Assembly (NCBI GenBank): GCA_963809895.1 | Contig: CAWELD010000010.1 | Location: 1,050,123-1,114,122 of the forward strand | DNA: 64,000 bases | Direction of reading: 5' to 3' | DNA from: an uncultured Gemmatimonadales bacterium | GTDB taxonomy: Bacteria; Gemmatimonadota; Gemmatimonadetes; Longimicrobiales; Gaopeijiaceae | Shown: piece by piece, positions 12,946-15,638 of the stretch | Layout: every line of letters starts with the position of its first letter | Numbering within the stretch: position 1 is the first letter of the stretch | Program-made: the position numbers and the translations under genes | Notes under the pieces: model-generated | What the model saw: only the letters and a program-made list of their open reading frames with translations | Told to the model about the DNA's origin: nothing | The model's database searches: none

Positions 12946-13469
12946 CCGTTACGGTCTACGTCCGTCGCGATAATTCCCGCCATCTCTTCCCACAACGGAT
13001 CACACAGACCGGGTCGCTGCACCGCGGCCTGGAAGTCGTCGTGCTCCCGACGGTACATGCGCAAGAGATCCGCTCGCTCCCGCGCGACGCACGCCCTCAG
13101 ATTGGCCAACCGGTCGGCGGCCTTCACGACCAGCGCCAGGTGGTGGCGGTCGGGAGCCGCCGCCAGACGCACCAGGGTACGCGCCTTGCGCTCACGTCGA
13201 TTCCGGCCCGGGCGGTCCGTGACCAGATCGACGCAGGCGGCGACCCGTGCGCCGAATCCATCCTCCACCTCCTCCAACGACGTCTCGGTATCCTCGACGA
13301 TGTCGTGCAGGTACGCCACGACGCGTGCCCGGTCGCCGTACTCCTCGACGAGCCGCGCGACGTCGTCGAGGTGCGCCGTGTAGGGGAGGTCGCCGTACTG
13401 TTGGTTGGCGTGGCGCTCGGCGGCCAGCGCACGGGCGCGAGCCACAGCTCCGGGATCGAGGTCGTTCAT
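12942..13469 (-). CDS. Stand-alone HD-domain protein, RelA/SpoT hydrolase (MESH1/SAH)-like
   Basis: H..QQY..PY..H, LHDIVEDT, FG.RVA..V..VT, KAADRLAN. Confidence 0.85.
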   Translation of the reverse strand: MNDLDPGAVARARALAAERHANQQYGDLPYTAHLDDVARLVEEYGDRARVVAYLHDIVEDTETSLEEVEDGFGARVAACVDLVTDRPGRNRRERKARTLVRLAAAPDRHHLALVVKAADRLANLRACVARERADLLRMYRREHDDFQAAVQRPGLCDPLWEEMAGIIATDVDRNG

Positions 13470-13603
13470 CCGGGGTCCGTCCGAATTTCGTCGGTGACGT
13501 GGATGGGAATACTGTGGTCCCACACCGGGCCCGGGAACCCCCGCCCTCGCTCCCGGTATTGGACGGGTCCTGCGGTAGGACCGACTTCAGCGAGGAGACC
13601 TGT

Positions 13604-14191
13604 ATGAAGCGTGTCGTCACGCTCGGCCTGCTCGCGGGAGCGCTCACCCTGGGTCTGCCGGCTCCGTCGGCTGCCCAGGAGGGATCGGACTTCCTCCCCG
13701 TGGGCGAGATGGCCCCCGACATCCAGGTCGTGGGTGCCACCCGCTACGGAGTCCTGGAGGAGCCGCTCCACCTGAGCGACTTTCGCGGCGAGACCGTGGT
13801 TCTGGCTTTCTTCTTCCGCGCCCGATCGCGTGGGTGAACGGTGCAAATGCAGGCGTACCGTGATCAGTACGCGAGTCTTTTCCACGATGGCCAGAACGTG
13901 GTTCTCCTGGGCATCTCCAATGATTCCCCCGCAGAGCTGGCGTCCTGGGCCGAGGACGCCGACTTCCAGTTCCTGTTCGGCAGCGACTCCGAGGGTGCGG
14001 CCTACGCCGCCTTCGGTGGAGATCCCCGCGACGATGGGATGGTGGGGAGCCGGGCCGTGATCGTCGTCGATCCGGATGGTCGCATCGCCGAGGTCATCCC
14101 GCAGTTCAACCAGGTGGATCCGGCGGCCTACGAGCAGCTCGGCGCCGCCATCGACCGGGTGACCCCCGAGCCGGCGGGCGAGGACCGGTAG
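13604..14191 (+). CDS. Exported AhpC/TSA (BCP-like) peroxiredoxin with in-frame UGA, probable selenoprotein (195 aa)
   Basis: GAGGAG RBS and signal peptide; ..VVLAFFFRARSRG-UGA-TVQMQAYRD.. has UGA at the peroxidatic Cys position; the frame continues with VLLGISND and the conserved Arg (SRAVIVVDPDGRI). Confidence 0.8.
13853..13872 (+). promoter_or_regulatory. Candidate bacterial SECIS hairpin
   Basis: GCGTAC-CGTGATCA-GTACGC perfect 6-bp stem; loop begins 21 nt after the UGA at 13835-13837. Confidence 0.55.
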
Positions 14192-14218
14192 AGGTCCGAG
14201 CCCACCGGTGCGGTCCAC

Positions 14219-14252
14219 CGAGGCCCGGCGCGGGAGACCGCGCCGGGCCTCG
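14219..14252. terminator. Bidirectional hairpin between convergent prx and tlpA
   Basis: Perfect 15-bp stem CGAGGCCCGGCGCGG-GAGA-CCGCGCCGGGCCTCG. Confidence 0.7.
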
Positions 14253-14254
14253 TG

Positions 14255-14779
14255 TCATTGGGTGGCGAGCACCGCCCGCACCGCGCCCAGCAGATCCTGG
14301 TCGGCACCCACACCGGTGTAGGCTACACGTCCCTGGGCGTCGAGGATCACCACCACCGAGGTCGTGGGCGCCTTGAAGGCCCGCACCGCGTTGCCCTTGC
14401 CGTCCCACACGTAGGGATATCCCGGATCGTGATCCTCAACGTGGCGCCTGACCCGCCGCACCGACTGGGCGACGGCCACGGCGACCGCCACGACGTTCAT
14501 GCGGTCGCCGAATTCCGACTGGATCCGGTCCATCTGGGGCTGTAGTGCCTCGCACTTCTCGCACCAGGTGGCCCAGAACTCCACCAGGGCCGGCTTACCC
14601 CGTGTGTAGTCCATCAGCTCCACCGCGTTGCCGTCCAGATCCTCGACAGACGCCGAGGGTGCCTGGGAGCCCAACGCCGGCCCCACCTCGCCGGAGGCCT
14701 GTGCACGCAGGGTTCCGGGCCCGGCGAGGGCCAGCAGAGCGATGAGGACGGAACCGCCGGATCGGAGTTGAGAGGTCAT
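14255..14779 (-). CDS. TlpA/ResA-like exported thiol-disulfide oxidoreductase
   Basis: Signal peptide, LVEFWATWCEKC, start overlaps the ccdA stop. Confidence 0.88.
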   Translation of the reverse strand: MTSQLRSGGSVLIALLALAGPGTLRAQASGEVGPALGSQAPSASVEDLDGNAVELMDYTRGKPALVEFWATWCEKCEALQPQMDRIQSEFGDRMNVVAVAVAVAQSVRRVRRHVEDHDPGYPYVWDGKGNAVRAFKAPTTSVVVILDAQGRVAYTGVGADQDLLGAVRAVLATQ

Positions 14780-15507
14780 AGGTTGTACCCTGCGATGACG
14801 AAGTAGTATTCGGCCATTCCGAGCATGATCAGCGCCCCGATCCGCTTGGCCCACAGCATCCACGCGCCGGAGCGGGGCAGCAGTGTGACGGCTCCCGCGA
14901 AGATTCCCACCACCGCCAGGAGCGCCGTCATGCCCAGCGAGAAGGCGAACAGATAGACGAACCCCATCAAGCCGGCCTGGGTGGTCGCCACCCAGGTGAG
15001 GACCACCGCGAACGCCGGTGCGCCACAGGGGGCTGCTACGATCCCCGAGCTCGCGCCCAGCAGGAACACGGCGCCGTAGGACCCGCCGCCCTGGCGGCCG
15101 GCCCACGCGAGCAGCCGCCGGGGCACGGGCATGGGAATGACGTCGAGCATGATCAGCGCGAACAGCACCAGGACGTTGCCGATGGCGAACCTCACCCACG
15201 GGTTGGCGCTCACCGTGCCGAAGAGGGTGCCCGTGAGCCCGGCGAGGAGGCCCAGGAAGGCGTAGAGCAGTGCCATGCCCAGCACGTACGTCAGGGTCAG
15301 CGCCACCGTGCGCGCCCTGGTCTGCCGTTCCTGCGCCGTGCAGGTGATCACCGACGCGGTGATGGGAATCATGGGGTAGACGCAGGGCGTGAGGCTCGTC
15401 AGCACCCCGGCTCCGAAGAGCGTGGCGATGGCCACGAGGGGGCTCGCCGAGAGCGTCTGTGAGAGTCCGCCGGCGGACTCGGCCTGGATCAGCGCGAAGA
15501 GGGTCAT
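14776..15507 (-). CDS. ccdA: CcdA / DsbD-beta family disulfide transporter
   Basis: TSLTPCVYPMIP and AAPCGAP Cys motifs, about 6 TM helices; ATG 15507 with GGAGG. Confidence 0.9.
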   Translation of the reverse strand: MTLFALIQAESAGGLSQTLSASPLVAIATLFGAGVLTSLTPCVYPMIPITASVITCTAQERQTRARTVALTLTYVLGMALLYAFLGLLAGLTGTLFGTVSANPWVRFAIGNVLVLFALIMLDVIPMPVPRRLLAWAGRQGGGSYGAVFLLGASSGIVAAPCGAPAFAVVLTWVATTQAGLMGFVYLFAFSLGMTALLAVVGIFAGAVTLLPRSGAWMLWAKRIGALIMLGMAEYYFVIAGYNL

Positions 15508-15638
15508 GTCGGGCCCCTCCAACCCCCGCGGACCGCGGGAGGTTCCTGTTGGCGGTCACGGCATCCTTGATGCGTCGAGGGCCGAGCGCCCATGTTGCGC
15601 CACCAGCACGGAGGCTCCCCCCGGAACGAGAGGTTCCC

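What the first reader, a model, noticed from the sequence alone, without database searches (positions are those of the whole stretch)
13604..14191. Probable secreted, Cys-free selenoperoxiredoxin hidden as two ORFs
Seen: the ORF track splits this gene at one TGA (13835-37), and the frame is unbroken on both sides. The TGA falls exactly at the Prx peroxidatic position (..SRG-U-T.., cf. TxxC). The catalytic Arg region is kept, the joined protein has no Cys at all, it has a signal peptide, and a 6-bp hairpin starts 15 nt after the UGA. Known: bacterial Sec insertion uses UGA plus an immediately downstream SECIS, and Sec-containing Prx-like proteins exist. Inference: an exported 1-Sec peroxidase that pipelines would miscall as a pseudogene.
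Basis: partly seen in the sequence, partly recalled or inferred. Interest (0 to 1): 0.75.

Follow-up and report, generated by a model that had tools for sequence, protein, structure and literature searches.

The report
Exported selenocysteine peroxiredoxin of Gemmatimonadota
The apparent stop codon inside this peroxide-destroying enzyme gene almost certainly encodes selenocysteine at the catalytic site, giving one intact exported selenium enzyme that is kept across a whole bacterial phylum, belongs to a selenoprotein family known since 2001, and is routinely cut in two by public annotation.

Summary
Observation confirmed and interpretation supported. Window 13604-14191 (+) is one 195-codon gene with a single in-frame TGA (13835-13837). 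It encodes an AhpC/TSA (BCP/PrxQ-like) peroxiredoxin with the TGA at the peroxidatic position (S-R-G-U-T).

The genome has selA, selB, selD (itself with a Sec-TGA) and tRNA-Sec. TGA is otherwise its main stop codon.

The same TGA is in about 125 sequence-checked relatives, and "1 TGA" is reported for nearly all listed hits in 240 of 301 genomes of the phylum. A few relatives carry TGC (Cys) instead.

Fifteen bases after the TGA lies a 6-bp/8-nt-loop hairpin. It is letter-for-letter identical in 120 of 124 Sec forms despite 46-75% protein identity, gains a covarying 7th pair in distant clades, and decays (3-9 of 20 changes) in Cys forms.

The protein has a signal peptide and no Cys at all. In about 80% of loci it faces a conserved ccdA-tlpA pair, the likely reductant supply.

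Sec-containing Prx (TxxU) is an established family, so this is a variant of a known kind: exported, 1-Sec, and lacking the canonical Pro of PxxxTxxC. A tree shows at least 4 Sec-to-Cys reversions; the older clades carry Pro.

The parts
13592..13597 (+). Shine-Dalgarno-like GAGGAG, 6 nt before the ATG
   Evidence: Read directly from the sequence.
13604..14191 (+). Complete selenoperoxiredoxin gene: 195 codons plus TAG, with U78 encoded by TGA
   Evidence: Orthologues with 1 TGA. AF2 model has mean pLDDT 83 and a BCP/Prx fold.
13604..13675 (+). Signal peptide, residues 1-24 (MKR / VVTLGLLAGALTLGL / PAPSAA), with predicted cleavage A24|Q25
   Evidence: The n/h/c layout and the small-x-A|Q junction are conserved in all aligned orthologues. 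Residues 1-26 have pLDDT below 50, and the folded domain starts near residue 30. No dedicated signal-peptide predictor was available.
13814..13816 (+). F71, which takes the place of the canonical Pro of the PxxxTxxC peroxiredoxin motif
   Evidence: Residue -7 is F (95) or Y (3) in the 98 Sec forms tallied. V (1) and I (2) also occur among the 20 distant Sec forms. It is never P. It is P in 17 of 18 Cys forms of this family.
13826..13828 (+). S75, the T/S of the T/S-x-x-U active-site motif
   Evidence: Thr in most orthologues. The motif definition is from PMC1794560.
13835..13837 (+). TGA read as selenocysteine (U78), the peroxidatic residue, in the first turn of helix 76-87
   Evidence: The Cys forms carry TGC at this column.
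13853..13872 (+). SECIS element: 6-bp stem (13853-58 with 13867-72) and 8-nt loop CGUGAUCA (13859-66)
   Evidence: Identical in 120 of 124 Sec forms, with the four variants changed only in the loop. Codon entropy is zero at codons 84-89. A covarying 7th pair is present in the distant clade. The element decays in Cys forms. It meets the bSECIS model. Hairpin energy is -7.0 kcal/mol alone and -11.5 in a 50-nt context.
14051..14053 (+). R150, the conserved catalytic Arg of peroxiredoxins
   Evidence: Invariant in alignment A1. It aligns with the Arg of solved BCPs 3hjp and 2ywn.
14220..14251 (.). Perfect 14-bp inverted repeat with a GAGA loop, lying between the convergent stop codons of prx and tlpA. 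Probably a two-way transcription terminator or RNA-end hairpin.
   Evidence: Read from the sequence. It has no T-run, so the consensus scan did not list it. The function is inferred.
14255..14779 (-). TlpA/ResA-like exported thioredoxin (WCEKC motif, own signal peptide), the proposed direct reductant
   Evidence: Pfam AhpC-TSA, Redoxin and Thioredoxin hits. It lies convergent next to prx in about 20 of 30 and about 65 of 80 loci. Its start was read.
14776..15507 (-). CcdA (DsbD_TM) membrane thiol-disulfide electron transporter. Its TGA stop overlaps the tlpA ATG (ATGA).
   Evidence: Pfam DsbD_TM at 6.7e-45. The synteny is conserved. The overlap and the start codon were read.

Best explanation
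One intact gene encodes an exported, single-selenocysteine peroxiredoxin of the BCP/PrxQ branch.

Shown or strongly supported:
- During translation, SelB carrying Sec-tRNA(Sec) recognises the 6-bp/8-nt-loop SECIS hairpin 15 nt after UGA-78 and inserts selenocysteine at the peroxidatic position.

Inferred from sequence:
- The 24-residue signal peptide sends the chain through the Sec translocon into the periplasm of this diderm Gemmatimonadota (Longimicrobiales-type) bacterium.

Inferred from family chemistry:
- The selenolate, positioned by S/T75 and R150, attacks H2O2 or an organic hydroperoxide and becomes a selenenic acid.
- There is no resolving Cys, so a partner thiol must regenerate it.

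Inferred from conserved gene neighbourhood only:
- That partner is the neighbouring exported TlpA-like thioredoxin (WCEKC), acting through a Se-S intermediate.
- TlpA is re-reduced by the membrane protein CcdA with electrons from cytoplasmic thioredoxin.
- This would parallel the ScsB-TlpA-PprX envelope pathway of Caulobacter.
For: Recoding:
- selA, selB, selC and selD are all present, and selD itself carries a Sec-TGA.
- TGA terminates 878 of 1145 long high-GC3 frames, so the genetic code is standard.
- The TGA sits at the same column in about 125 sequence-checked relatives at 46-75% identity. The protein is conserved on both sides of it.
- A phylum survey found a hit in 240 of 301 genomes, and nearly all listed hits have exactly 1 TGA.
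- Cys (TGC) homologues exist at the same column.
- selA is present in 7 of 7 TGA-form genomes tested and absent from 3 of 5 Cys-form genomes. No genome lacking selA had the TGA form.

SECIS:
- The 20-nt hairpin is identical in 120 of 124 Sec forms.
- Codons 84-89 have zero synonymous variation, against 1-2 bits at other invariant residues. The codons CGT and GAT are fixed in a 69% G+C genome.
- A 7th pair covaries in the distant clade (G-C 11, C-G 7, U-A 3, A-U 1, U-G 1; 23 of 24 paired). Over all 102 unique sequences 23 are paired, against 12.1 +/- 2.5 in shuffles, and 0 of 10000 shuffles reached that number.
- The hairpin has 3-9 of 20 changes in the five Cys-form DNAs.
- All bSECIS criteria are met.

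Enzyme:
- The protein matches Pfam AhpC-TSA.
- The AF2 model has a Prx/BCP fold with U78 at the helix N-terminus.
- The T/S-x-x-U motif and the Arg are kept.

Export:
- A signal peptide is conserved in all orthologues.
- The N-terminus has low pLDDT.

Relay:
- The ccdA-tlpA pair is convergent next to prx in about 80% of loci, while the upstream neighbour is not conserved.
- The precedent is PprX-TlpA-ScsB (PMC3322552).
Against: - There is no physical evidence of selenium incorporation.
- The canonical Pro of PxxxTxxC is missing (F71), so full peroxidase competence is assumed, not shown.
- No signal-peptide predictor was available. Many orthologues start MRR.., so a Tat route is not strictly excluded.
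- tlpA and ccdA are convergent with prx, not co-transcribed.
- The genome has two further DsbD_TM paralogues and no ResB. This pair could therefore serve cytochrome c or cuproenzyme maturation and sit next to prx for another reason.
- About 15-20% of loci lack the pair.
- The 6-bp stem alone gives -7.0 kcal/mol, just short of the -7.5 model threshold unless flanks are included.
Confidence: 0.85

Rival explanations
1. The protein is a real, exported selenoprotein, but peroxide is not its physiological substrate. It would be a selenol-based envelope oxidoreductase, for example one that reduces sulfenylated or disulfide-bonded envelope proteins, or that handles S/Se/metal species. The Prx scaffold would be re-used for this.
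For: The 'absolutely conserved' Pro of the Prx active site is replaced by Phe, Tyr, Val or Ile in every Sec form. Scores against curated peroxidase equivalogs are far below cut-off: BCP 55 against 140, and PrxU 29 against 270. Caulobacter PrxL, a Prx-like ScsB substrate, has no detectable peroxidase activity (PMC3322552). The neighbours are general envelope reductases.
Against: The T/S-x-x-U motif and the catalytic Arg, which activate the peroxide, are invariant. The fold and the position of U78 are those of BCP. Cys-form descendants carry the full PxxxTxxC signature, which argues that the ancestral job is that of a peroxiredoxin.
Confidence: 0.1
2. The TGA is read mainly by near-cognate suppression (Trp or Cys) or simply leaks. 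On this reading Sec is not the functional residue.
For: None is specific to this gene. Low-level UGA read-through is known in bacteria (general knowledge).
Against: A Trp at the peroxidatic position would be inactive. If Cys were the intended residue, TGC would be used, as it is in the revertants. The invariant hairpin, its loss in Cys forms, and the co-occurrence with selA are all unexplained by leakage.
Confidence: 0.03
3. The gene is broken or truly split. A 77-aa N-terminal peptide and a separate 114-aa C-terminal protein would be made, as public annotation implies.
For: Gene callers output the C-terminal ORF alone in hundreds of records. A GTG (13841) and an ATG (13847) follow the TGA.
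Against: The fragment would lack the signal peptide, three core strands and the catalytic residue. The TGA and both flanks are conserved in frame across a phylum. A pseudogene would not keep one and only one stop at the catalytic column.
Confidence: 0.02

Closest known systems
Sec-containing peroxiredoxin, the 'Prx (PF00578 / COG1225 Bcp, TxxU)' selenoprotein family. The founding member is PrxU of Eubacterium acidaminophilum (Sohling et al. 2001). The family is catalogued in PMC1088965, PMC1794560, PMC9312934 and PMC13188914.
   Same: It has the AhpC/TSA fold and Sec at the peroxidatic position in a T/S-x-x-U motif. It has Cys homologues and a SECIS immediately downstream of the UGA within the coding region.
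   Different: The catalogued family is described with a conserved PxxxTxxU motif (PMC13188914), whereas this clade never has the Pro. It carries a signal peptide. It has no second Cys or Sec. It scores far below the NCBIfam PrxU and BCP cut-offs. It is a phylum-wide gene of Gemmatimonadota, a group not mentioned in those surveys as held in the library. The 2006 survey inferred only Cys-to-Sec events for Prx, whereas here the tree needs at least 4 Sec-to-Cys events.
PprX of Caulobacter crescentus with TlpA and ScsB, the first described envelope peroxide-reduction pathway (PMC3322552).
   Same: It is a BCP/PrxQ-type peroxiredoxin with an N-terminal signal sequence. A TlpA-like exported thioredoxin is the (proposed) direct reductant. 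A DsbD-superfamily membrane protein brings electrons from the cytoplasm.
   Different: PprX uses Cys, keeps PxxxTxxC and has a resolving Cys. Here the enzyme has Sec, no Pro and no resolving residue. The membrane component here is the minimal CcdA (DsbD_TM only), not ScsB. The electron path here is inferred from synteny, not shown.
1-Cys BCP/AhpE-type peroxiredoxins (for example Sulfolobus Bcp4 3hjp, Aeropyrum 2cx3, M. tuberculosis AhpE 1xvw).
   Same: They are the best sequence and structure matches. They have a monomer-size Prx fold and a single redox-active residue that needs an external reductant.
   Different: They are cytoplasmic, use Cys, and keep the canonical Pro. Identity is only about 25%.

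Membership tests
Bacterial selenoprotein (SelB/SECIS-dependent UGA recoding) | An in-frame UGA conserved at one column in orthologues, with coding conservation on both sides | tested here: met
   About 125 sequence-checked relatives carry it. In the phylum survey 240 of 301 genomes have a hit, and nearly all listed hits have exactly 1 TGA.
Bacterial selenoprotein (SelB/SECIS-dependent UGA recoding) | Cys-containing homologues aligned at the Sec column | tested here: met
   TGC in L047 and L157-L160. Thirteen full-length database proteins carry GCT at that site.
Bacterial selenoprotein (SelB/SECIS-dependent UGA recoding) | A bSECIS with a 3-9 nt apical loop, a 4-16 bp stem, a G in the first two loop positions, 16-37 nt from the UGA to the loop, and MFE of -7.5 kcal/mol or lower (PMC13188914) | tested here: met
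   The loop is 8 nt (CGUGAUCA, with G at position 2 followed by U). The stem is 6 bp, or 7 bp in the distant clade. The spacing is 21 nt. The energy is -7.0 for the bare hairpin and -11.5 in a 50-nt context.
Bacterial selenoprotein (SelB/SECIS-dependent UGA recoding) | selA, selB, selC and selD present in the genome | tested here: met
   selA co-occurs with the TGA form across genomes.
Bacterial selenoprotein (SelB/SECIS-dependent UGA recoding) | Selenium physically present in the polypeptide | not testable with these tools
   This needs 75Se labelling or mass spectrometry.
Peroxiredoxin (AhpC/TSA, BCP/PrxQ branch) | A Pfam PF00578 match above the gathering score, and a Prx fold | tested here: met
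   72.6 bits against a cut-off of 26. The AF2 model has pLDDT 83. The top PDB matches are BCPs, with target-normalised TM-score (TMt) 0.82 and E about 1e-12.
Peroxiredoxin (AhpC/TSA, BCP/PrxQ branch) | The T/S-x-x-C(U) peroxidatic motif and the conserved Arg | tested here: met
   S75-R-G-U78 (T in most orthologues). R150 is invariant and aligns with the BCP Arg.
Peroxiredoxin (AhpC/TSA, BCP/PrxQ branch) | The Pro of PxxxTxxC, called 'absolutely conserved' in PMC3322552; the Sec form is written PxxxTxxU in PMC13188914 | tested here: not met
   F71 in the window. The residue is F, Y, V or I in all Sec forms examined and never P. P is present in 17 of 18 Cys forms.
Peroxiredoxin (AhpC/TSA, BCP/PrxQ branch) | Equivalog-level match to a characterised peroxidase (NCBIfam BCP PRK09437, PrxQ, PrxU) | tested here: not met
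   55.4 against 140, 30.6 against 260, and 28.9 against 270 bits. No curated model covers this clade.
Peroxiredoxin (AhpC/TSA, BCP/PrxQ branch) | Thiol-dependent peroxidase activity | not testable with these tools
   This needs an enzyme assay.
PprX-type envelope peroxide-reduction pathway | Export signal on the peroxiredoxin | tested here: inconclusive
   The n/h/c layout and the A|Q junction are conserved in all orthologues, and the N-terminus has low pLDDT. No SignalP-type tool or localisation data were available.
PprX-type envelope peroxide-reduction pathway | A TlpA-like thioredoxin and a DsbD-family membrane reductase that supply electrons | tested here: inconclusive
   Both genes are adjacent and the synteny is conserved in about 80% of loci. 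The orientation is convergent, paralogues exist, and electron transfer itself is not testable here.
PprX-type envelope peroxide-reduction pathway | A two-Cys (peroxidatic plus resolving) mechanism | tested here: not met
   No Cys was found outside the Sec column in 98 of 98 Sec forms. None was found in the 5 Cys forms with DNA. The 13 full-length database Cys forms also show a single Cys.

The most novel reading that the evidence does not exclude
Selenium and the canonical active-site proline may be functionally interchangeable in this enzyme. In this reading the ancestral Gemmatimonadota envelope peroxiredoxin used Sec with an aromatic or aliphatic residue at -7. Lineages that replaced Sec by Cys, often after losing selA, then carry Pro: all the older Cys clades have Pro (up to 3 gains on the tree), and only the youngest revertant still has Phe. 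If so, this would be a natural, replicated experiment on what Sec buys a thiol peroxidase. The protein would also be the catalytic end of a dedicated CcdA-TlpA-SecPrx relay, the first selenium-based peroxide defence of a bacterial envelope.
Probability: 0.3. Interest if true: 0.55.

Novelty: new variant of a known kind. Interest (0 to 1): 0.4.

Why it matters
1. Annotation. Hundreds of public records from NCBI, JGI and ENA carry only a 111-116 aa fragment of this gene. No NCBIfam model covers it. One profile flagged as a selenoprotein would repair a phylum-wide error and add a selenoprotein to nearly every Sec-using Gemmatimonadota genome.

2. Biology. Gemmatimonadota are abundant, mostly aerobic soil and marine bacteria. 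A universally kept exported selenoperoxidase implies a selenium requirement for their envelope oxidative defence. It is also a counter-example to the view that Prx selenoproteins arise only by Cys-to-Sec change.

3. Enzymology. The Sec/non-Pro against Cys/Pro pattern offers a ready-made comparative system for asking why Sec is used. The short, invariant SECIS is a compact recoding signal that could be useful for engineering.

Tried and rejected
- Rfam scan of the window at gathering thresholds found nothing. Rfam did not flag the hairpin.
- ARAGORN on the window found no tRNA. tRNA-Sec lies on another contig.
- I looked for selA and selB next to selC in L009. The high-G+C ORF noise was unhelpful, so I used family searches instead.
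- A home-made genome-wide scan for other in-frame TGAs, using GC3 filters, mostly returned adjacent same-frame genes. It missed both prx and selD, so it is not a usable selenoproteome census. It did give one plausible AhpD-like candidate.
- A genetic-code change (TGA as Trp or Gly) was rejected, because TGA is the commonest terminal stop and many orthologues end in TGA.
- A lipoprotein was rejected for this protein, because it has no Cys.
- A Tat signal was considered. There was no TIGR01409 hit and the n-region is only 3 residues, so I judged it unlikely but not excluded.
- A search for ResB, to see whether ccdA-tlpA belongs to a System II cytochrome c operon, found no ResB in the genome. This neither supports nor refutes a dedicated relay.
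- The consensus scan flagged the SECIS hairpin as terminator-like because of the following TCTTTTC. I rejected this because the site is in the middle of a conserved coding region and the tail varies in orthologues.

Full report
**1. The observation**

Window 13604-14191 (+) reads as one frame. ATG is at 13604, preceded by GAGGAG at 13592-13597. There is a single in-frame TGA at 13835-13837, and TAG at 14189-14191. The mechanical ORF list splits it into 13247..13837 and 13841..14191.

With TGA read as U the product is 195 aa and has no Cys. It matches Pfam AhpC-TSA (3.5e-20, 72.6 bits, residues 33-163) and Redoxin (1e-15). Both matches span the TGA. The TGA lies in ..VVLAFFFRARSRG-U-TVQM.., the peroxidatic position of a peroxiredoxin.

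An AlphaFold2 model built on a 10-sequence alignment has mean pLDDT 83 and pTM 0.78. U78 sits in the first turn of helix 76-87, and residues 1-26 are below pLDDT 50. Its best PDB matches are BCP-type peroxiredoxins: 9a4d_B and 3hjp_A, with E about 1e-12 and target-normalised TM-score (TMt) 0.82. The sequence search agrees and aligns R150 with the catalytic Arg.

**2. Is the TGA a selenocysteine codon?**

The genome is 5.33 Mb, 69% G+C, 11 contigs and 95% complete.

- It carries tRNA-Sec (ARAGORN anticodon tca; Rfam RF01852, 76.6 bits).
- It carries selD (374 bits), which itself has an in-frame TGA at HGAG-U-ACK followed by its own hairpin.
- It carries selA (540 bits) and selB (322 bits).
- TGA ends 878 of 1145 long, high-GC3 frames, so the code is standard.

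Six-frame searches of relatives give a match with exactly one TGA in almost every case. All hits at the level of the orthologue in the 41 nearest genomes do so, except one with no stop (G026) and two C-terminal pieces cut at contig ends. In a phylum-wide sample, 240 of 301 genomes have a hit at E of 1e-25 or lower. Nearly all of the 150 listed rows show '1 TGA' and only six show no stop.

After extraction and translation, the TGA is at the same alignment column in three sets:

- 23 of 24 full-length relatives;
- 79 of 80 named MAG loci titled Gemmatimonadota, Longimicrobiales or Candidatus Palauibacter;
- 20 of 20 distant relatives at 46-55% identity.

The exceptions carry TGC (Cys): L047 and L157-L160. 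So do 13 full-length proteins in the public protein collection.

Across genomes, selA was present in 7 of 7 TGA-form genomes tested. It was absent from 3 of 5 Cys-form genomes and from 5 of 6 genomes without the gene. No selA-less genome had the TGA form.

**3. The SECIS**

Fifteen nucleotides after the TGA lies GCGUAC-CGUGAUCA-GUACGC (13853-13872).

- In 23 Sec-form orthologues, codons 84-89 (A Y R D Q Y = GCG TAC CGT GAT CAG TAC) and the GC that opens the next codon show no synonymous change at all. Other invariant residues have 1-2 bits of codon entropy.
- CGT and GAT are fixed although Arg and Asp codons vary freely elsewhere in the gene.
- Over all 124 Sec-form sequences collected, 120 have the identical 20-mer. 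The four variants differ only in the loop, at position 3 (U to G) or position 6 (U to C).
- In the more distant families a 7th base pair is added and covaries: G-C 11, C-G 7, U-A 3, A-U 1, U-G 1, so 23 of 24 are paired. In the window's own clade that position is unpaired (A/A, G/G, A/C, C/C).
- Over all 102 unique sequences the observed pairing is 23, against 12.1 +/- 2.5 in 10000 shuffles. No shuffle reached 23.
- In the five Cys-form DNAs the 20-mer has 3-9 changes, including amino-acid changes (SYRDRYQ, SYREKYA). The constraint therefore disappears together with the UGA.

The element meets all published bSECIS model criteria (PMC13188914). The loop is 8 nt, the stem is 6-7 bp, G is at loop position 2 followed by U, and the spacing from the UGA to the loop is 21 nt. 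The energy is -7.0 kcal/mol for the bare hairpin and -11.5 in a 50-nt context.

I regard Sec insertion as established as far as sequence analysis can take it.

**4. Export and the single redox residue**

All orthologues start with M-(K/R)-R, then a hydrophobic stretch of about 12-15 residues, then a small-x-A|Q junction. In the window this is PSAA|QE, with predicted cleavage after A24. The N-terminus is unstructured in the model.

There is no lipobox Cys and no Tat-signal hit. No dedicated predictor was available, so export by the Sec pathway to the periplasm is an inference, though a strong one.

None of the 98 distinct Sec forms has any Cys from 45 residues before the Sec to the C-terminus. 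The Cys forms also have a single Cys. The enzyme is therefore a 1-Sec (or 1-Cys) peroxiredoxin that needs an external reductant.

**5. Neighbourhood**

Convergent with prx, and separated from it by a perfect 14-bp hairpin (14220-14251), lie two genes:

- a TlpA/ResA-like exported thioredoxin with a WCEKC motif (14255-14779, - strand);
- upstream of it, CcdA (DsbD_TM, 6.7e-45; 14776-15507, - strand).

The two are joined by an ATGA overlap. This pair lies directly downstream of prx in about 20 of 30 nearest loci and about 65 of 80 named loci, including other families. The gene upstream of prx (an HD-domain protein here) is not conserved.

The precedent is Caulobacter, where ScsB reduces TlpA and TlpA reduces the exported PrxQ-type PprX (PMC3322552).

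There are caveats. The genes are convergent rather than co-transcribed. The genome has two more DsbD_TM paralogues and no ResB. About a fifth of loci lack the pair. I give the relay about 55%.

**6. Comparison with what is known**

Sec-containing peroxiredoxins with a T/S-x-x-U site are an established family. PrxU of Eubacterium acidaminophilum was described in 2001. There were 43 genes in the Sargasso Sea survey and 12 in complete genomes by 2006. The family is listed as PF00578/COG1225 'TxxU' in the 2022 and 2026 reviews. The core claim is therefore not new in kind.

The differences are these:

- (a) The family is described with a conserved PxxxTxxU motif, and Pro is called absolutely conserved in Prxs. 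This clade never has it: residue -7 is F, Y, V or I.
- (b) It has a signal peptide.
- (c) It has no resolving residue.
- (d) It scores far below all curated NCBIfam peroxidase models.
- (e) It is a near-universal gene of Gemmatimonadota. I found no description of selenoproteins for that phylum in the held literature. Absence from this library is not proof of absence.

Earlier agents of this scan reached the same verdict on sister genes in other genomes.

**7. Evolution**

A maximum-likelihood tree of 62 Sec and 16 Cys forms places the Cys forms inside Sec clades at four or more separate places, with starred support. Examples are L047 with L044, the P0003 group with L113, and P0002 deep in the window's clade. 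The tree needs 5 label changes.

All Sec forms share one homologous SECIS, so Sec is ancestral and Cys is derived repeatedly. This is the opposite of the Cys-to-Sec direction inferred for Prx in 2006.

All the older Cys clades have Pro at -7 (FFP.). Only the youngest revertant (P0002, FFF.GC) keeps Phe. This replicated pattern suggests that Pro is needed for a thiolate but not for a selenolate. That is a hypothesis. Phylogenetic sampling of Cys forms is thin.

**8. Verdict**

This is a real, intact, exported selenoperoxiredoxin that public annotation truncates in hundreds of records. In novelty terms it is a variant of a known selenoprotein family, of moderate interest.

Noticed in passing
G000 contig C3:3207042-3207965 (+), locus L010 (outside the window): selD of this genome is itself a selenoprotein. 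It has an in-frame TGA at HGAG-U-ACKLG, followed 11 nt later by a 7-bp hairpin AGCUCGG-GAUGA-CCGAGCU.
   Followed up: partly
G000 contig C3, + strand, TGA at 0-based offset 841606 (outside the window): A candidate third selenoprotein. The frame is open and has high GC3 on both sides of a TGA in ..AANDCFY-U-INHHGAG.., an AhpD/CMD-like CxxU motif. A hairpin ACGGAG-CGGGC-CUCCGU starts 10 nt after the TGA. No family search was run.
   Followed up: no
window 14220-14251: A perfect 14-bp inverted repeat (GAGGCCCGGCGCGG GAGA CCGCGCCGGGCCTC) lies in the 63-nt gap between the convergent stops of prx and tlpA. It has no T-run. It is probably a two-way terminator in this high-G+C genome.
   Followed up: no
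window 14776-14779 (- strand): The ccdA stop and the tlpA start overlap as ATGA, which suggests translational coupling of the two-gene operon. ccdA most likely starts at ATG 15507, with GGAGG 8 nt upstream, rather than at the TTG at 15522 that the ORF lister gives.
   Followed up: partly
L086 (PBUX01000064.1, 106 kb contig): A record titled 'Methanobacteriota archaeon isolate RS442' carries a typical Gemmatimonadota Sec-prx with the identical SECIS and the tlpA-ccdA neighbours. The contig or bin is probably mislabelled.
   Followed up: no
G087 (C64 and C153); G022, G149, G315, G178: One genome holds both a Sec copy and a Cys copy of the gene, which could be a back-up for selenium scarcity. Several genomes hold two Sec copies, in tandem in G315.
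   Followed up: no
window 13852 and 13873, and the same positions in 78 near-clade orthologues: The two nucleotides flanking the 6-bp SECIS stem are never complementary in the window's clade, and are usually identical (A/A 56, G/G 10, C/C 4). In distant clades they form a covarying pair. This may be lineage G+C drift, or a preference for a closing mismatch.
   Followed up: partly
window 13853-13882: The consensus scan lists the SECIS hairpin plus the following GAGTCTTTTC as the only 'terminator-like' site in 13300-14400. It lies inside the coding region, and the tail is not conserved in orthologues.
   Followed up: yes
G000 whole genome: There are three DsbD_TM (CcdA-like) paralogues over the Pfam cut-off: C10 next to prx, C3:1930908 and C4:163785. 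There is no ResB match, so cytochrome c maturation is probably not by System II.
   Followed up: partly
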